DNA of 64,000 nucleotides from positions 40,091 through 104,090 of the forward strand of contig JAVBQF010000006.1 of NCBI GenBank assembly GCA_031549195.1. The letters run 5' to 3'. Shown here in pieces: positions 14,134 through 62,262 of the stretch; position 1 is the stretch's first letter, and every line of letters begins with the position of its first letter. Made by a program: the position numbers and the translations under genes. The stretch is from Bacilli bacterium (GTDB lineage Bacteria > Bacillota_I > Bacilli_A > RF39 > UBA660). The notes beneath the pieces are model-generated. The model worked only from the letters and a program-made list of their open reading frames with translations, searched no databases and had not been told where the DNA came from.

Positions 14134-14207
14134 GGGTCCATAGCCAAGTGGTAAGGCGTGGGACTGCAACTCCCTGATCGTTGGTTCAAATCCGACTGGG
14201 CCCTCCA
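14134..14207 (+). tRNA. tRNA-Cys (anticodon GCA) with encoded CCA
   Basis: Manual cloverleaf: acceptor GGGTCCA pairs with TGGGCCC, with a G-U wobble at pair 4. The D-arm is GCC/GGC. The anticodon loop is CTGCAAC, giving GCA. The T-arm is GTTGG-TTCAAAT-CCGAC, followed by discriminator T and CCA. Confidence 0.8.
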
Positions 14208-21984: not shown

Positions 21985-22310
21985 CACCTCCTTTTTAACA
22001 TAATAAAAAACAGTATTATCCCCAAATAGGGACGAATACTGTTTGATCCGCGTTGCCACCCAATTTATTATAAAATAAAATTATTTCATAATCTCTTCAT
22101 TTCAGTTCTATTAAACCTAGTAATTTGATAACGGATTACTTTCCGTCCTAATCTACTGTTACTTCGATAGGCGACTCATGAGTGTTATTCATAGTAATAT
22201 TGATATTGGCTTTCACTATCCCCAACTAGCTTAATCAAATCTTAACTATTACTTCTCTCGATCAAAGTCTTTGTGCATATAAATTTACATTATAATATGC
22301 AATTTGTCAA
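21985..22310 (-). promoter_or_regulatory. T-box riboswitch leader, probably Asn-specific, with promoter, Stem I, T-box sequence and a terminator/antiterminator
   Basis: On the minus strand: TTGACA (22310-22305) -17- TAAATT. Stem I contains GAGAGA and an AGTA K-turn motif. The candidate specifier is ...GAAUAAC A... (AAU-AAC, both Asn codons; AAC at plus 22186-22184). The T-box motif is AAUUGGGUGGCAACGCGG (plus 22064-22048). The terminator is AACAGUAUU...AAUACUGUU plus U6 (plus 22044-22005). Confidence 0.6.
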
Positions 22311-22328
22311 TATGTTATATTCATATCA

Positions 22329-23507
22329 TTATTTGTTGTTGTATAAGATGTTTATATCGACGGCCCCACTAACACCATTTATTCTCCCAATATTACTTAA
22401 TTGCCACATTACATAATCACCTTGATATGTTGTTTCCTTTGTATAATGAGCAAGCCATACTGGATGGTTATTTTTGTTAGTCCAAATATTTTCTAGATAA
22501 TTTTTACTACTGTAAAGCATACCTTGATATCCACCTTTATTAATTGCATCAATAAACTTTTCCGCTATATTATTGATATCGTAAAAGCTTAAATTAAAAT
22601 TATTCCATTGAGACCAACTTTCCCAGTCAAATACCACTGGTAAATCTAATTTAGTACCATTTAACTTTTCAAGTACCCAATTAGCATGTTTGACACTCTC
22701 TTCAGCACTAGTTGCAATACTATATAAATAAACGCCTACTTTTAATCCAGCTTTCTTCGCATTTTCAATATTCTTTAAATAATATGAATCTATCTCTAGT
22801 TCACCGTTTGCAACCTTTTGAACACCAATTCTCATCATTGCAAAAGTAGCCCCAGCTTCCTTTACCTTGTTAAAGTCTATACTAGTTTGCCATCTTGATA
22901 CATCGATACCAATTTCATTATCAACTGTTTTATACTTATTTATTACATCTTGAAAGTATAATTTTTCAGTACTCGTTGAGGAGCTATTATTAATCTTCTT
23001 TACGACATTTAATGTAATATTGAAAGTAGAGTAGTTGTTACTACTATCAGTAACTGTATATTCTAAAGGATAACTTCCAACTTTAGAAATATCATAACTA
23101 CCTTTAATTGTACATAATGCCTTTTTATCATAATTATCTCCAAACATAATCAAGTTACACAAATCCCCAGTGTGGTTTAATTCTACTGTTTTATTAACAC
23201 CACTAAATATTCGTGGGGCTTCTTTATCAACAATATTTACATCAAACTTATAAACATATTTATTCTTATCTACTTTATAGTATATTTCTTGTTTTATAAT
23301 ACCAGTTTTGTTTGTATTGATTAGAATATTATCACTAACCATTTCTCCGTTTGTAATAGTTACTATATCTTTTAGGTAAATATTGCTATACACTTCAACA
23401 GTAGACTTTGCACGTATTGTTACGGTTTTTGGTATTTCAGTATAAATCTTTTCTTTACAGCCACACATTAATAGACAAAATATAAATAGCAGAAAAAACT
23501 TTTTCAT
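22329..23507 (-). CDS. GH25 muramidase (lysozyme) with an N-terminal signal/lipoprotein peptide and an Ig-like spacer domain
   Basis: GH25 core: GIDVSRWQTSIDFNKVKEAGATFAMMRIGVQ ... DSYYLKNIENAKKAGLKVGVYLYS ... LPVVFDWESW. The N-terminus is MKKFFLLFIFCLLMCGC. Confidence 0.6.
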   Translation of the reverse strand: MKKFFLLFIFCLLMCGCKEKIYTEIPKTVTIRAKSTVEVYSNIYLKDIVTITNGEMVSDNILINTNKTGIIKQEIYYKVDKNKYVYKFDVNIVDKEAPRIFSGVNKTVELNHTGDLCNLIMFGDNYDKKALCTIKGSYDISKVGSYPLEYTVTDSSNNYSTFNITLNVVKKINNSSSTSTEKLYFQDVINKYKTVDNEIGIDVSRWQTSIDFNKVKEAGATFAMMRIGVQKVANGELEIDSYYLKNIENAKKAGLKVGVYLYSIATSAEESVKHANWVLEKLNGTKLDLPVVFDWESWSQWNNFNLSFYDINNIAEKFIDAINKGGYQGMLYSSKNYLENIWTNKNNHPVWLAHYTKETTYQGDYVMWQLSNIGRINGVSGAVDINILYNNK

Positions 23508-23604
23508 AATTATCACCTTACATTAATTATAACAGTATCACTAAAATTTTAATACTAATTTATATTATACGATGTGATATAATTATTTATATGGAGGATC
23601 TAAT

Positions 23605-25752: not shown

Positions 25753-25848
25753 TAAATTAAAATTAATTCAAAAAAGAATTAATTTTTTTTGTCTACTTTG
25801 AGGAAATGAAAATGTTATGGGTAATAATGATAGTAAGGAGGTGATAAA

Positions 25849-27930
25849 GTGTTAAAAAAGTATGAATGTGTTATGCAAGAAGGAATTAAAGACTGTGGTA
25901 TTTGTTCCTTACTTACAATTGTAAAAACGTATGGTGGTAATGTTTCAAAGGAGTATTTAAGAAGTTTGACAAATACTACAAAAGATGGTGTAACAGCACT
26001 ATCTTTACTCGAAGCAGGCAAAGACCTAGGCTTCAGCACAAAAGGAGTAACGGGAGACGTTTTTGATATAGATAGTAATTCTCTTCCTTGTATAGCACAT
26101 GTCATCATCAATAATAGTTATAAACATTTTGTAGTAATACATCATATAGATAAAACTAAAAAAGTTATAACTATTGCAGATCCAGCAAGTGGAATTATAA
26201 AGATTAAGTATGAAGATTTCAAAGAGATATCAACTGATAAATATTTGTTATTTATGCCAAACAAACCTATACCTATATTCGAAAAAGTTAATACATTAAA
26301 AGAACTTATAATTGAATTTATAACTACTAATAAAAAAATATTTATTTCAATATTTCTTTTCTCACTCTTATACACCCTAATTAATATAATAACTGCATAT
26401 AATTTTCAATTTATTATAGAAAGTTCAATAAATTACTTCTCTAAAAATAACTTGTATTTTATTATGGTTATAATGTTTATATTAGTAGTCTTCAAAACAA
26501 TTATAGATTATTTTAGAAGTCAATTACTTAATTTTATTAATCATAAACTGGATTATACGATGGTCAAATCACTTTTTAGACATATAATATCACTTCCTTA
26601 TTTATATTATAAAAATAGAACTACTGGAGAAGTTATTTCTAGAATTAATGATTTGTCTGAAATAAGGCAAACATTGAGTCAAGTATTTGTAACACTATTT
26701 GTTGATACTATTTTAGTTACTTTTGTTTTAATAGCATTATTTACAATTAACTTTGTACTATCTTTGATTACAATATCTATTATAGTCATATACATGCTTT
26801 TAATATGGATATTCAATGGTTATTTGGCAAAAAACATCGTCAAAATCACTAAAGACAATGCCATAGTTAATTCTTATATGATTGAATCTATTAATTCTAT
26901 CGAATCAATTAAGGGATTAAATATAGTTGATAAAATTAATAATGAATTCAATAAAAAATATTCTAAATATATAAATAATAGTTATAAATTTAATTATATA
27001 TATAATATAGAAATTTTTATTAAAGAATTAATAAACTCGATAGGATTATTACTAATTATATTTATTGGAAGTATACATGTTATAGACAATAAAATGTCTT
27101 TAGCAGAACTTATTACTTACAATAGTTTAATTATATATTTTCTAGAGCCAGTAAAAAGTATTATTAATTTTGATATTATATTTAGAAAAACAAAAATAGT
27201 ATTTGATAGAGTTATGGAGCTTTATACAGTTAAAGCTGAAAAAGTAATAGCGTGTGAAAAATATGTTGATAAAAAACTAAATGGAGATATAGAAATAAAA
27301 AATCTAACTTTTTCTTATAATCACATTAATAATGTGATTGACAAATTAAACTTGACAATAAAAAAAGGCGAAAAAATAATAGTAAGTGGCTCATCTGGAA
27401 GTGGAAAAAGTACTCGTGCTAAAATATTGATGAAATATTTTGATATAGAGAGAGATAAAGTTTTTATAGACAATAAGGACATCAATGATTATAGCTTATT
27501 AAATATAAGAGAAAGTATATGTTACATTTCCCAAAATGAAACTCTTTATACTGACAGTGTCTATAACAATGTAGTATTATCTAATAATTGTAATTATGAT
27601 GAATTTTTAAAGGTATCAAAAGTGACGTTACTTGAAGAAATTGTTAAAAATAATGGCCTTGGTTTTAATATGTTACTTGAAGAAAATGGCTCAAACTTAT
27701 CTGGTGGAGAGAAAGAGAGAGTTGTTTTATCAAGATCATTAATGAAAAATAGTGATATTTATATTATGGATGAAACACTAAGTCAAGTAGATACAAAAAA
27801 GGAAAGAGAAATATTAACAAATCTATTTAATTTTTATAAGGAAAAAACAATAATATTTATAAGTCACCGTTTTGATAATGAAGATTTATTTGATAAATGT
27901 ATTAATTTGAATGAGGTACTTTGTGAATAA
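25849..27930 (+). CDS. Bacteriocin-processing and export ABC transporter with an N-terminal C39 peptidase domain (ComA/LagD/SunT-type)
   Basis: GTG start after AGGAGGTG. C39 motifs are QEGIKDCGICSLLTIVKTYGG (catalytic Cys) and a His-containing region HFVVIHHID. It has 6 TM helices. Walker A is GSSGSGKST, the signature is LSGGEKER, Walker B is IYIMDE, and the H-loop is SHR. Confidence 0.75.
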   Translation: MLKKYECVMQEGIKDCGICSLLTIVKTYGGNVSKEYLRSLTNTTKDGVTALSLLEAGKDLGFSTKGVTGDVFDIDSNSLPCIAHVIINNSYKHFVVIHHIDKTKKVITIADPASGIIKIKYEDFKEISTDKYLLFMPNKPIPIFEKVNTLKELIIEFITTNKKIFISIFLFSLLYTLINIITAYNFQFIIESSINYFSKNNLYFIMVIMFILVVFKTIIDYFRSQLLNFINHKLDYTMVKSLFRHIISLPYLYYKNRTTGEVISRINDLSEIRQTLSQVFVTLFVDTILVTFVLIALFTINFVLSLITISIIVIYMLLIWIFNGYLAKNIVKITKDNAIVNSYMIESINSIESIKGLNIVDKINNEFNKKYSKYINNSYKFNYIYNIEIFIKELINSIGLLLIIFIGSIHVIDNKMSLAELITYNSLIIYFLEPVKSIINFDIIFRKTKIVFDRVMELYTVKAEKVIACEKYVDKKLNGDIEIKNLTFSYNHINNVIDKLNLTIKKGEKIIVSGSSGSGKSTRAKILMKYFDIERDKVFIDNKDINDYSLLNIRESICYISQNETLYTDSVYNNVVLSNNCNYDEFLKVSKVTLLEEIVKNNGLGFNMLLEENGSNLSGGEKERVVLSRSLMKNSDIYIMDETLSQVDTKKEREILTNLFNFYKEKTIIFISHRFDNEDLFDKCINLNEVLCE

Positions 27931-28366
27931 GTTTATTGATATAGGTGACTATAATTTAGGATATGGAAATAAAAAAGTTAATATTTTATATAAGTGGATA
28001 GTAGTTTTAATTTTTATAATAACAATTACTTTGATATTAATATTTAATAAGTATCATTATATGTATTATCAAGGTAGTGGGATTCTAAAGGAAAGAGATT
28101 ATTTAACTATTAATGTGTATATTGAAGATATTGATAAGGTTATAAAAAATAAGTATATTATGATAGGAGGATCCACACTTACTTACAACGTGGCAAATAT
28201 AAGTGAAGAGTTTACAGCTCAAGGAACAATTCTTTACAAGGAAATAACCTTGAAAATAGATTTGGAAGATACTATAAATATAGAAAATAATTATATTAAA
28301 TTTAGAATAATGATAGATAAGATTTCGATGCTTGATTATGTATTAAGTAAAATAAAGGGGGAATGA
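27911..28366 (+). CDS. Small membrane-anchored protein of the bacteriocin locus (accessory or immunity candidate)
   Basis: Overlaps the ABC gene stop by 20 nt. Single N-terminal TM (ILYKWIVVLIFIITITLILIF). No known motif. Confidence 0.4.
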   Translation: MRYFVNKFIDIGDYNLGYGNKKVNILYKWIVVLIFIITITLILIFNKYHYMYYQGSGILKERDYLTINVYIEDIDKVIKNKYIMIGGSTLTYNVANISEEFTAQGTILYKEITLKIDLEDTINIENNYIKFRIMIDKISMLDYVLSKIKGE

Positions 28367-28367
28367 A

Positions 28368-28508
28368 ATGAAAGATTTATCAAATAATGAACTAACAGAG
28401 ACAAAAGGTGGAATAGGTGTTTGGGGGCTTATTGGAATAGGTGCTGTTGTTGTGTTTTTAATAGGCGTAGTAGATGGTTACACAAGACCACTTGCTTGCA
28501 ATAAATAA
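28368..28508 (+). CDS. Class II bacteriocin precursor peptide 1 with a double-glycine leader (46 aa: MKDLSNNELTETKGG | IGVWGLIGIGAVVVFLIGVVDGYTRPLACNK)
   Basis: Translated by hand from the DNA. RBS AAGGGGG lies 7 nt upstream. The leader LSxxELxxxxGG matches the consensus for C39-processed leaders. The mature peptide is small, cationic at the C-terminus, and carries GxxxG motifs typical of two-peptide bacteriocins. Confidence 0.6.
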   Translation: MKDLSNNELTETKGGIGVWGLIGIGAVVVFLIGVVDGYTRPLACNK

Positions 28509-28518
28509 AGGAGGAATT

Positions 28519-28686
28519 ATGGTTGATGTTACTAATGAAGAAATGTATCTTACGCATGGTGGTATCTCTATTTCAGGTAGTTTAGTAAACTCTCTTACTA
28601 GTGGAATAAAAGTAATATTAGATATAGGAAGAAGTGCTGGTACTGCAGCAAGAAGACTACTTTTTAATAGTGTATGCCCAGTTTAA
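28519..28686 (+). CDS. Class II bacteriocin precursor peptide 2 with a double-glycine leader (55 aa: MVDVTNEEMYLTHGG | ISISGSLVNSLTSGIKVILDIGRSAGTAARRLLFNSVCPV)
   Basis: RBS AAGGAGG lies 5 nt upstream of the ATG at 28519. The track's 70-aa ORF starts further upstream inside peptide 1. The leader is VTxxEMxxxxGG. The mature peptide has an SxxxS/GxxxG-like motif and an Arg-rich C-terminus. Confidence 0.55.
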   Translation: MVDVTNEEMYLTHGGISISGSLVNSLTSGIKVILDIGRSAGTAARRLLFNSVCPV

Positions 28687-28751
28687 TTAAAAGAGTATCT
28701 GACAATAAAAGGTTGTTAACAGTACTATCAATACTTTTATTACCAGTAACG

Positions 28752-28847
28752 ATGTATCTTTTTAATATTATTGTAACCTTTACCTTTAGTATGGGTACAC
28801 ATGTAGGTACATTTATAAGACACTTATATACAAATGTTGTATGTTAA
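28752..28847 (+). CDS. Candidate small hydrophobic ORF (31 aa from ATG, or 44 aa from TTG at 28713). A possible immunity peptide.
   Basis: MYLFNIIVTFTFSMGTHVGTFIRHLYTNVVC lies between peptide 2 and the operon terminator. No convincing RBS was found. Confidence 0.2.
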   Translation: MYLFNIIVTFTFSMGTHVGTFIRHLYTNVVC

Positions 28848-28854
28848 AGAAAAA

Positions 28855-28880
28855 GTTACATAGAAATATGTAACTTTTTA
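28855..28880. terminator. Terminator hairpin (GTTACATA-gaaa-TATGTAAC) flanked by an A-run and a T-run, ending the bacteriocin operon
   Basis: 8-bp perfect stem, read directly. Confidence 0.55.
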
Positions 28881-28897
28881 TATGTTAAAAATACTAT

Positions 28898-62017: not shown

Positions 62018-62262
62018 AGATATTATAATATAATACTTTAAAAGCAATGAAGCTGAGGAGTAAATTAATAATTATTGATAGAGAGTTAGTGTTTGATGGA
62101 AACTAATAATAGTATTAATTGAAGGTAGCAGCAGAGTTTAATTTCTAAGTAAATAGGAAATTACGTATTAATGCGTTAAATTGTTGAGTGTGTGATTTTT
62201 CACAAACTAAGGTGGTACCGCGATAACTCGTCCTTATATAGAAATATATAAGGGCTTTTTTA
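62018..62262 (+). promoter_or_regulatory. T-box riboswitch leader with promoter TTTACA-17-TATAAT; presumed Val specificity based on the valS context
   Basis: The promoter is at 62018-62046. The T-box motif AACUAAGGUGGUACCGCG is at 62204-62222. A strong terminator CCUUAUAUA-gaaa-UAUAUAAGG plus U6 is at 62230-62262, overlapping the antiterminator. The specifier codon is not assigned with confidence. Confidence 0.6.

What the first reader, a model, noticed from the sequence alone, without database searches (positions are those of the whole stretch)
25849..28880. Compact two-peptide class II bacteriocin locus (C39-ABC exporter, a 151-aa accessory protein, two GG-leader peptides) with no evident immunity or regulatory genes
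Two adjacent small ORFs, each with its own strong RBS, were found by hand translation. They encode MKDLSNNELTETKGG-IGVWGLIGIGAVVVFLIGVVDGYTRPLACNK and MVDVTNEEMYLTHGG-ISISGSLVNSLTSGIKVILDIGRSAGTAARRLLFNSVCPV. The leaders fit the double-glycine consensus cleaved by C39 domains. The mature parts carry the GxxxG or SxxxS helix-packing motifs characteristic of two-peptide bacteriocins, and each has one Cys near the C-terminus. The upstream ABC transporter has an intact C39 domain with its catalytic Cys. The peptides have no obvious named homolog by inspection and were missed or mis-started in the ORF track. The accessory gene, 151 aa with one TM, is far shorter than the usual ~450-aa HlyD-like partner. 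The only immunity candidate is a 31-44-aa hydrophobic ORF at 28713/28752-28847. The operon is insulated by hairpins at 25760-25790 and 28855-28880.
Basis: partly seen in the sequence, partly recalled or inferred. Interest (0 to 1): 0.7.

Follow-up and report, generated by a model that had tools for sequence, protein, structure and literature searches.

The report
Conserved two-peptide bacteriocin-like operon

Summary
Window 25849-28847 (+) is one tightly packed operon bounded by two terminator hairpins. It has five genes:
- a C39-peptidase ABC exporter with its catalytic residues intact;
- a 147-aa accessory protein (GTG 27923);

New results:
1. The accessory belongs to an unannotated family of about 116 clusters, nearly all of the listed members 133-154 aa. 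A confident model (pLDDT 93) shows one membrane helix plus a beta-barrel most like that of membrane-fusion proteins, so it looks like a minimal HlyD-like adaptor.
2. ORF3 is conserved, under purifying selection, and a membrane-anchored paralogue of pepB. Its ATG is built on pepB's invariant Cys codon.
3. All three small proteins carry an invariant GxxxG.
4. The cassette is not an orphan. All 80 returned species-representative genomes of uncultured Bacilli (RF39-type) have pepA and pepB, in the same order as the other cassette genes present, and sit among housekeeping genes.

pepA scores just above the cutoff of the lactobin A/cerein 7B model. pepB and ORF3 match no family. Antimicrobial activity and immunity are inferred, not shown.

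The parts
25759..25790 (+). Upstream boundary: A/T-rich stem-loop (25759-25786) followed by a U-run. It is the intrinsic terminator of the preceding 468-aa gene.
   Evidence: RNA fold gives -8.1 kcal/mol, z -3.9 against shuffles. The sequence was read directly.
25849..27930 (+). Peptidase-containing ABC exporter (PCAT type), 693 aa. The N-terminal C39 domain is about nt 25861-26262, followed by the six-helix transmembrane domain and the nucleotide-binding domain.
   Evidence: Pfam C39, ABC_membrane and ABC_tran all pass. TIGR01193 scores 444 bits, below its 523.85 cut-off. PCAT1 4ry2 gives E 2e-113 and ComA 8hf7 gives 1e-97. Q10, C16, H93, D111, Walker A 514-522, LSGG 617 and Walker B 637-642 are present. 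The same motifs are found in 76 of 76 homologous exporters.
27923..28366 (+). Accessory protein, 147 aa (alternative ATG at 27911 gives 151 aa). It has an N-terminal membrane helix (about residues 21-42) and an extracytoplasmic six-stranded beta-barrel with one short helix. It looks like a minimal membrane-fusion-protein adaptor. Its start overlaps the ABC stop (GTGAATAA).
28368..28508 (+). pepA, 46 aa: a 15-aa double-glycine leader (MKDLSNNELTETKGG) and a 31-aa mature peptide. The mature part is a hydrophobic helix followed by the conserved tail GV(V/I)DG(Y/F)xRPxxC.
Evidence: TIGR03949 scores 21.6 bits against a 21.5 cut-off. The family has at least 507 clusters of about 46 aa, some named class IIb bacteriocin. 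GG, F30, G33, V34, D36, G37, P41 and C44 are invariant in 75 unique sequences. dN/dS is 0.25.
28519..28686 (+). pepB, 55 aa: a 15-aa double-glycine leader (MVDVTNEEMYLTHGG) and a 40-aa cationic mature peptide containing S/GxxxS/G repeats and the motif LGRSxGTAxRR...C.
   Evidence: No curated family matches. It was found in 12 clusters by word-indexed search and by HMM in all 80 related loci directly after pepA. GG, G37, G41 and C53 are invariant; R38, R45 and R46 are at least 90% conserved. dN/dS is 0.45.
28674..28847 (+). ORF3, 57 aa: a basic N-terminus, one roughly 25-residue membrane helix with a central Pro, and a pepB-like tail G-x3-G-T-x-I-R...C. It is the candidate immunity protein. Its ATG overlaps the Val-Cys codons of pepB (gtATGc).
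   Evidence: It is 65% identical in L002 and conserved in L003. It is present next to pepB in about 75 of 80 species loci. Its start overlaps the pepB end in 67 of 68 loci. dN/dS is 0.43, and the other two frames are full of stops. hhalign pepB against ORF3 gives probability 95.9%, E 5e-9, while the control pepA against ORF3 gives nothing. The N-side net charge is +3.0 against +0.9 on the C-side.
28850..28884 (+). Operon terminator: a 13-bp stem-loop (28850-28862 / 28867-28879) with a U-run, 3 nt after the ORF3 stop. The ftsA promoter region follows.
   Evidence: RNA fold gives -13.0 kcal/mol, z -5.8, and 0 of 200 shuffles fold as well.

Best explanation
This is a self-contained five-gene operon that makes, processes and exports a pair of membrane-active peptides, most likely a class IIb-type (two-peptide) bacteriocin, together with its own protection factor.

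Proposed mechanism:
1. The operon is transcribed from upstream of 25849 to the terminator at 28850-28879. The genes are translationally coupled: ABC and accessory overlap by 8 nt, accessory and pepA are 1 nt apart, pepA and pepB are 10 nt apart, and pepB and ORF3 overlap by 13 nt.
2. The C39 domain of the ABC exporter (Cys16, His93, Asp111, with Gln10 as oxyanion residue) recognises the 15-residue double-glycine leaders of pepA and pepB and cuts after Gly-Gly. The transporter then expels the mature peptides: 31 aa (3200.8 Da) and 40 aa (4086.8 Da).
3. The 147-aa accessory protein is anchored by one helix with a membrane-fusion-protein-like beta-barrel outside the cell. It sits on the exporter as a minimal adaptor. 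It lacks the coiled-coil hairpin that HlyD-type partners use to span a periplasm, and there is no outer membrane to reach here.
4. Outside the cell, the hydrophobic helix of pepA and the cationic amphipathic pepB pack through their invariant GxxxG motifs (pepA GVVDG, pepB GRSAG) and permeabilise target membranes. Their single invariant C-terminal cysteines may link them as a heterodimer.
5. ORF3 is an old membrane-anchored paralogue of pepB. It presents the same G-x3-G-T-x-I-R tail on the outer face of the producer's membrane. I propose it protects the producer as a decoy that occupies the pepB-binding face of pepA or of a receptor.

What is shown: the gene anatomy, domain content, catalytic motifs, conservation and the pepB-ORF3 paralogy. 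The accessory fold is a prediction, though a confident one. What is inferred: cleavage, export, pore formation, killing, the disulfide and the immunity mechanism.
For: Gene content and coordinates.

Exporter: the three domains and its close relation to PCAT1 and ComA, with aligned catalytic residues. The motifs are kept in 76 of 76 homologues.

Peptides:
- pepA passes TIGR03949, and relatives are annotated as class IIb bacteriocins.
- The leader profile weakly matches the PCAT1 substrate leader CtA.
- GxxxG and Cys are invariant in both peptides.
- Mature pepA is strongly hydrophobic (best 19-residue Kyte-Doolittle mean 2.44). Mature pepB is cationic (mean net charge +2.9).

Accessory: TM helix plus MFP-like barrel, a family of uniform length, and always placed between the exporter and pepA.

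ORF3: coding and conserved, coupled to pepB, homologous to pepB, and with a tail far more similar to pepB tails than shuffled controls are (BLOSUM +23 against -17 +/- 10; +12 of that is built in by anchoring on the two GxxxG glycines).

Operon: gene order is conserved in 80 of 80 species loci, and the boundaries are hairpins.
Against: - No activity, cleavage or expression data exist for any member. No paper in the searchable library links these bacteria to a bacteriocin.
- The cassette is single-copy, syntenic with housekeeping genes (RsmD-like and YqeY-like neighbours, or ftsA-ftsZ), under purifying selection, and diverges at about the rate of FtsA. This is unlike the patchy, fast-changing distribution typical of bacteriocin loci.
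- Five of the 80 related loci lack ORF3, and four of these also lack the accessory gene, yet they keep the exporter and both peptides. So neither gene is strictly required, and ORF3 cannot be the only route to self-protection there.
- There is no co-evolution signal between cognate pepB and ORF3 tails (p 0.83).
- The pepA family hit is marginal and driven by the leader plus the Gly-rich helix.
- The membrane-fusion-protein similarity is remote: no sequence hit, and Foldseek E is at least 0.04.
- These are gut anaerobes, where extracellular disulfides are not favoured.
Confidence: 0.6

Rival explanations
1. The cassette is a core, vertically inherited system with a physiological role, not a weapon against competitors. 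The exported pepA/pepB pair, with membrane-anchored ORF3 as its cell-bound partner, would serve the producer's own lifestyle. For example, it could permeabilise neighbouring or host cells to obtain nucleotides and amino acids that these genome-reduced auxotrophs cannot make, or it could act in envelope or cell-cell contact.
For: - The same cassette occurs in at least 80 (122 by tblastn) species-representative genomes, single-copy, colinear and embedded among housekeeping genes.
- dN/dS is 0.25-0.45, and divergence is similar to FtsA.
- There are no plasmid copies.
- Carriers have genomes of about 1.2-1.3 Mb.
- RF39 is described as highly reduced and auxotrophic (PMC12306168, PMC13155120).
Against: - All recognisable parts are those of bacteriocin export systems.
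- Nothing ties the peptides to a cellular process.
- Conserved bacteriocin families do exist.
- Whether the cassette is universal in the order could not be measured with the scans available.
Confidence: 0.2
2. ORF3 is not an immunity protein. It would be a third structural or receptor subunit: a membrane-tethered pepB paralogue that captures exported pepA on the producer's surface. Self-protection, if needed at all, would come from elsewhere, or from the 147-aa protein.
For: - pepB-ORF3 homology extends over the whole length.
- GxxxG is invariant in all three small proteins.
- A C-terminal Cys is present in 50 of 65 ORF3 sequences.
- ORF3 and the accessory gene are absent together in four loci.
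Against: - In two-peptide bacteriocin operons the small membrane protein directly downstream is normally the immunity gene (general knowledge of class IIb loci).
- The Cys is not conserved in about a quarter of ORF3 sequences.
- The four double-loss loci are probably one clade, and so one event.
Confidence: 0.2
3. The peptides are secreted signals (ComC/BlpC-like pheromones) rather than effectors.
For: The same leader type and exporter class are used for competence and bacteriocin-inducing pheromones. ComA is the second-closest solved relative.
Against: - No histidine kinase or response regulator lies near the cassette in the window, and none recurs among its neighbours in the 80 related loci.
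- Mature pepA is essentially a transmembrane helix (Kyte-Doolittle 2.44), and pepB is 40 aa with GxxxG motifs. Neither looks like a diffusible pheromone.
Confidence: 0.04

Closest known systems
Class IIb (two-peptide) bacteriocins of Gram-positive bacteria, e.g. lactococcin G, plantaricins EF and JK, ABP-118, brochocin C (from general knowledge of the class)
   Same: - Two adjacent peptide genes in one operon.
- 15-residue double-glycine leaders.
- Mature peptides of 31 and 40 aa, one hydrophobic and one cationic, each with a conserved GxxxG helix-packing motif.
- A small membrane-protein gene directly downstream.
- A dedicated C39-ABC exporter with an accessory gene.
   Different: - There is no detectable sequence relationship of the mature parts to any characterised member.
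- pepB has no family at all.
- Both peptides have one invariant C-terminal Cys.
- The putative immunity protein is a paralogue of one of the peptides.
- The exporter genes are in the same operon, upstream of the peptides.
- There is no regulatory three-component system.
- The locus is conserved and syntenic across a whole lineage instead of strain-variable.
NCBIfam TIGR03949, class IIb bacteriocin, lactobin A/cerein 7B family
   Same: pepA scores 21.6 bits against a 21.5-bit cut-off over residues 2-35. Some relatives carry this name in NCBI and JGI annotation.
   Different: The match covers the leader and the Gly-rich helix only. The family-defining tail here (GVIDGYxRPxxC) lies outside the model. 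pepB members score only 13.6-14.8 bits.
PCAT1 of Clostridium thermocellum (PDB 4ry2) and ComA (8hf7): peptidase-containing ABC transporters
   Same: The full length aligns (E 2e-113 and 1e-97). The C39 Gln, Cys, His and Asp residues and all nucleotide-binding-domain motifs are conserved.
   Different: It scores below the TIGR01193 cut-off (444 against 523.85 bits), and in most loci it is paired with a novel 147-aa partner.
HlyD/LcnD/ComB-type accessory proteins and periplasmic adaptor (membrane fusion) proteins such as MacA, BesA, EmrA, AcrA
   Same: - The gene is immediately next to, and coupled with, its ABC transporter.
   Different: - It is about one third of the usual length.
- It has no alpha-helical hairpin and no lipoyl or membrane-proximal domains.
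- It has no HlyD-family Pfam or NCBIfam hit.
- It forms its own unannotated family of uniform length.
- It is absent from five related cassettes.

Membership tests
Class IIb two-peptide bacteriocin | Two different peptide genes adjacent in one operon | tested here: met
   pepA and pepB are 10 nt apart in the window. They are adjacent in 74 of 80 related loci, and in the same order with inserted genes in 6.
Class IIb two-peptide bacteriocin | Double-glycine leaders of 15-30 residues on both peptides | tested here: met
   The Gly-Gly (pepA: 96%/100%) sits at leader positions 14-15, with a conserved Glu-Leu at -8/-7, in 75 pepA and 81 pepB sequences. Cleavage itself was not tested.
Class IIb two-peptide bacteriocin | GxxxG-type helix-helix motifs in both mature peptides | tested here: met
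   pepA G33-x3-G37 and pepB G37-x3-G41 are invariant.
Class IIb two-peptide bacteriocin | Cognate immunity gene next to the peptide genes | tested here: inconclusive
   ORF3 (57 aa, one TM helix) is in the right place and is conserved. However, it matches no known immunity family, and its function is untested.
Class IIb two-peptide bacteriocin | Antimicrobial activity that needs both peptides in about equal amounts | not testable with these tools
   This needs synthetic or purified peptides and indicator strains.
NCBIfam TIGR03949 (lactobin A/cerein 7B) | Whole-protein score at or above the curated cut-off of 21.5 bits | tested here: met
   pepA scores 21.6 bits, a margin of 0.1 bit. pepB-type members score only 13.6-14.8 bits, so pepB is not a member.
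Peptidase-containing ABC transporter (bacteriocin cleavage/export, TIGR01193) | C39 domain with catalytic Cys, His and Asp, plus a six-helix transmembrane domain and a nucleotide-binding domain in one chain | tested here: met
   All three Pfam domains score above their gathering thresholds. The residues align to PCAT1.
Peptidase-containing ABC transporter (bacteriocin cleavage/export, TIGR01193) | Score above the curated TIGR01193 cut-off (523.85 bits) | tested here: not met
   It scores 444.4 bits. It is the best-scoring model but below NCBI's naming threshold, so this is a divergent subfamily.
HlyD / membrane fusion protein family | Match to HlyD-family sequence models | tested here: not met
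   There are no Pfam or NCBIfam hits for the window protein or for 108 family members, and no PDB sequence relative.
HlyD / membrane fusion protein family | MFP beta-barrel domain attached to an N-terminal membrane anchor | tested here: met
   [not shown]
HlyD / membrane fusion protein family | Alpha-helical coiled-coil hairpin and lipoyl domain | tested here: not met
   The model has only a TM helix, six strands and two short helices in 147 residues. It is therefore not filed as a member, only as working like one.

The most novel reading that the evidence does not exclude
The cassette may be a lineage-defining core system of genome-reduced RF39-type gut Bacilli rather than an accessory weapon. 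On this reading, the exported pepA-pepB pair, possibly a Cys-linked heterodimer, is used to permeabilise neighbouring cells and harvest metabolites these auxotrophs cannot make. ORF3, a membrane-tethered copy of pepB, shields the producer by molecular mimicry. Mimicry of this kind has, to my knowledge, not been described as an immunity principle for two-peptide bacteriocins.
Probability: 0.15. Interest if true: 0.8.

Novelty: new variant of a known kind. Interest (0 to 1): 0.55.

Why it matters
RF39-type Bacilli are common in human and animal guts, are uncultured, and have very small genomes. Almost nothing is known about how they compete or interact. A compact export system that at least 80 of their species have kept is a concrete, synthesisable handle, because the two mature peptides are only 31 and 40 residues long.

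It also defines three protein families that no curated database covers:
- a minimal membrane-fusion-like partner for peptidase-ABC exporters;
- the pepB peptides;
- a pepB-derived membrane protein.

Finally, it suggests a testable immunity principle: a tethered decoy of one of the two peptides.

If instead it proves to be an ordinary bacteriocin, it is still a new two-peptide family from an unexplored lineage, with a clean minimal export machinery suited to structural work.

Tried and rejected
- **First genome scan.** A scan of species-representative genomes with the two-sequence accessory alignment found nothing. The window's own species is apparently not among the representatives. A second scan with the pepA profile worked.
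- **Exact look-up of the 151-aa form.** It found nothing, because databases hold the 147-aa form.
- **Shallow structure model.** AlphaFold2 with only two sequences gave an unusable model (pLDDT 45). It was replaced by the 108-sequence run.
- **AlphaFold database search.** The Foldseek library for the AlphaFold database was not available.
- **Sequence searches of solved structures.** Searches with the accessory, pepA and pepB profiles gave only chance hits.
- **Plasmids.** tblastn of pepA and pepB against 72,556 plasmids found no match.
- **Promoter.** The scan gave no more sites than shuffled sequence and no convincing site between the upstream terminator and the exporter start. The promoter is left unassigned.
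- **Co-evolution test.** Cognate pepB and ORF3 tails are no more alike than non-cognate ones (p 0.83). Recent gene conversion or tight co-evolution is therefore rejected, and an old duplication is retained.
- **UGA as Trp.** I considered whether UGA is read as Trp here, because two database proteins are accessory-pepA fusions. I rejected this. The window's genes are long and intact under the standard code, and RF39 genomes are documented as mis-annotated with code 4 (PMC8629427).
- **Pheromone reading.** It is considered unlikely, because no sensor genes occur in any neighbourhood.

Full report
**1. What is there**

Window 25849-28847 on the + strand holds five tightly packed genes.
- A 693-aa ABC exporter (25849-27930, GTG start 7 nt after AAGGAGG).
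- An accessory gene whose start overlaps the exporter's stop.
- pepA (28368-28508), 1 nt after the accessory stop.
- pepB (28519-28686), 10 nt after pepA.
- A fifth ORF (28674-28847), which overlaps the last 13 nt of pepB.

The first, 25759-25786, gives -8.1 kcal/mol (z -3.9) and terminates the upstream gene. The second, 28850-28879, gives -13.0 kcal/mol (z -5.8) and closes the operon. ftsA, ftsZ and ftsK follow. The locus is AT-rich: 24.7% G+C against 28.9% for the window.

**2. The exporter**

Pfam finds Peptidase_C39, ABC_membrane and ABC_tran, all above threshold. The best NCBIfam model is the bacteriocin cleavage/export transporter TIGR01193, but at 444 bits it falls below that model's 523.85-bit cut-off. 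The closest solved structures are PCAT1 (4ry2, E 2e-113) and ComA (8hf7, E 1e-97). The alignment to PCAT1 places Gln10, Cys16, His93 and Asp111 of the window protein at the C39 Gln, Cys, His and Asp motif positions. Walker A, LSGG, Walker B and the H-loop are also present. The peptidase therefore looks catalytically competent. The same motifs occur in 76 of 76 homologous exporters in related loci.

**3. The short accessory protein**

It has no Pfam or NCBIfam match, and only two close homologues share 5-mer words with it. Those homologues, and a GAGG 6 nt upstream, favour the GTG at 27923 as the start, giving 147 aa.

An exhaustive profile search of 1.84 billion representative proteins found 116 clusters at E <= 1e-3, nearly all 133-154 aa. 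So the short length is the family norm, not a truncation. None of the 108 aligned members hits a meaningful Pfam family, and there is no sequence relative in the PDB.

I read this as a minimal membrane-fusion-like adaptor: an anchor plus the beta-barrel, without the coiled-coil hairpin or the lipoyl domain. It works like an HlyD/LcnD-type partner but fails two of that family's defining tests, so I do not file it as a member. Five related cassettes have no room for this gene, so it is not indispensable.

**4. The two peptides**

pepA reaches TIGR03949 (class IIb bacteriocin, lactobin A/cerein 7B family) by a margin of 0.1 bit. The match covers the leader and the Gly-rich helix only. A profile of six pepA sequences retrieves at least 507 clusters of about 46 aa. 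Most are unnamed. A few are named by NCBI or JGI as this bacteriocin family, and they come from MAGs labelled Bacilli bacterium.

pepB matches no curated family. The word-indexed search found 12 clusters.

Across 75 and 81 unique sequences from related loci, the following are invariant:
- pepA: the Gly-Gly site (first Gly 96%, second 100%), F30, G33, V34, D36, G37, P41 and C44.
- pepB: the Gly-Gly site, G37, G41 and C53, with R38, R45 and R46 at 90% or more.

Each peptide thus has one invariant GxxxG and one invariant Cys near its C-terminus. Mature pepA is essentially a hydrophobic helix (best 19-residue hydropathy 2.44). Mature pepB is cationic (mean net charge +2.9). The window peptides are 3200.8 Da (pI 8.2) and 4086.8 Da (pI 10.8). 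Neither has a relative among solved structures. The only noteworthy weak hit is the leader of the PCAT1 substrate CtA.

**5. The fifth gene**

Comparison with a diverged relative, L002 (accessory 65% identical), shows a 57/58-aa protein conserved from an ATG that lies inside the end of pepB. A more distant relative, L003, has it too.

With an HMM, iterated once, it is present directly after pepB in about 75 of 80 species loci. Window versus L002 gives dN/dS 0.43, compared with pepA 0.25, pepB 0.45, the accessory 0.24 and FtsA 0.30. The other two frames of the region are full of stops. It is therefore a real gene.

In 67 of 68 loci its start overlaps the end of pepB by 7, 13 or 16 nt. In other words, the ATG is made of the last base of the codon before pepB's invariant Cys plus the TG of that Cys codon (in the window, gtATGc at 28672-28677). 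This indicates translational coupling.

The protein has a basic N-terminus (mean net charge +3.0), one long hydrophobic segment with a central Pro, and a tail G-x3-G-T-x-I-R...C with invariant G41 and G45. The positive-inside rule predicts that the tail is outside the cell.

Profile-profile comparison shows that it is homologous to pepB over 56 columns (probability 95.9%, E 5e-9). The control comparison of pepA with ORF3 gives nothing. Tails aligned on the GxxxG score +23 (BLOSUM62) against -17 +/- 10 for shuffled tails; about +12 of the +23 comes by construction from the two anchored glycines. Cognate pairs are no more alike than non-cognate pairs (p 0.83), so the duplication is old.

**6. 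Distribution**

The window's species is not among the GTDB representatives; the best pepA identity there is 65%. A pattern scan with the pepA profile found 122 species-representative genomes, of which 80 were fetched.
- All 80 have pepA and pepB; in every locus the cassette genes found (exporter, accessory, pepA, pepB, ORF3) lie in that order on one strand.
- 76 show the exporter within the fetched DNA.
- 70 show the accessory.

The records are labelled uncultured Bacilli, Tenericutes, Mollicutes, Mycoplasmatota, Bacillales bacterium UBA660 and Candidatus Pelethosoma. UBA660 is a family of the GTDB order RF39 (PMC13155120). Three carriers are contigs of 1.19-1.31 Mb, one of them labelled a chromosome. 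RF39 is described as an uncultivated, highly genome-reduced, auxotrophic gut lineage (PMC12306168).

The neighbours are housekeeping genes in two recurrent arrangements:
- an RsmD-like methyltransferase upstream (26 loci) and a YqeY-like protein downstream (42 loci);
- ftsA-ftsZ downstream, in 10 loci including the window.

My naming of the two neighbour families is by eye from their sequences. No kinase, response regulator or Abi-type gene recurs among the neighbours. pepA and pepB have no tblastn match on 72,556 plasmids. Between the window and seven relatives that also have ftsA downstream, the peptides are 36-72% identical, FtsA 56-62% and FtsZ 84-90%. The peptides therefore evolve about as slowly as FtsA.

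**7. Interpretation**

The anatomy is that of a class IIb bacteriocin system in its most compact form, and I commit to that as the most likely function. The exporter cuts after Gly-Gly and exports both peptides. The minimal adaptor assists. pepA and pepB pair through their GxxxG motifs in target membranes. ORF3 protects the producer.

Because ORF3 is a membrane-tethered copy of pepB's GxxxG-Arg tail, the simplest mechanism is a decoy that occupies the pepB-binding face of pepA or of a shared receptor. The paired invariant cysteines suggest an A-B disulfide or another shared chemistry, but in an anaerobe this is uncertain.

The main reason for caution is evolutionary. A single-copy, syntenic, slowly evolving cassette kept by many species with tiny genomes is unlike most bacteriocin loci. 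A core physiological role cannot be excluded; one example would be permeabilising neighbours to obtain nutrients. In addition, five loci lack ORF3 and four of them also lack the accessory. Neither gene is therefore essential for whatever the exporter-peptide core does.

**8. Novelty**

The kind of system is known. The following are new as far as the curated libraries and the searchable literature show:
- the minimal MFP-like accessory family;
- the pepB family;
- the pepB-derived membrane protein, whose start codon sits on the Cys codon;
- the lineage-wide conservation in RF39-type bacteria.

I rate it a new variant of a known kind, of moderate to good interest.

Noticed in passing
Proteins P0045 (185 aa) and P0055 (190 aa): Two database 'proteins' are read-through fusions of the accessory protein and pepA (...KGEW...GG...). 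The gene caller read the accessory's TGA stop as Trp. This fits the report that RF39 genomes are mis-annotated with genetic code 4 although UGA is a stop in them (PMC8629427). The window's genes are intact under the standard code.
   Followed up: partly
L015 8139-9920, L031 8139-9355, L020 8142-8850, L036 8142-8650, L070 8136-8900, L065 6138-6700: In six related species, one to three unrelated same-strand genes sit between pepA and pepB. By eye they look like Nudix-like hydrolases, a methyltransferase-like protein and others of unknown type. The junction between the two peptide genes seems to tolerate or attract insertions without loss of either peptide gene.
   Followed up: partly
L062, L072, L068, L065 (also L013 and L081): Four related cassettes lack both the accessory gene and ORF3 but keep the exporter, pepA and pepB. 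L013 lacks only the accessory and L081 lacks only ORF3. The joint absence could mean the two proteins work together, or it could be one loss event in one clade.
   Followed up: partly
window 28401-28403 and 28552-28554 (codon 12, position -4 of both leaders); L002 likewise: Both leaders of the window and of its closest relative L002 have Thr at position -4 before the cleavage site. About 70% of family members have Ile there in both peptides. The two leaders appear to have changed in parallel, as expected if one protease domain reads both.
   Followed up: no
window 22025-22274 (-), 62038-62238 (+), 14134-14204 (+): There are two T-box leaders (107 and 134 bits, both above the gathering score) and one tRNA gene elsewhere in the window. 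They are unrelated to the operon.
   Followed up: no
window 22329-23516 (-): This 395-aa ORF has an N-terminal hydrophobic segment and a C-terminal part that looks by eye like a GH25-type muramidase (GIDVSRWQ...). That would suggest the organism has peptidoglycan. It was not checked against any library.
   Followed up: no
whole window: The window's species appears to be absent from the GTDB r232 species representatives. The accessory-based scan found nothing, and the best pepA match there is 65% identical. A near-identical copy exists in one NCBI assembly contig of 114,720 nt and in Logan run SRR23967709.
   Followed up: partly
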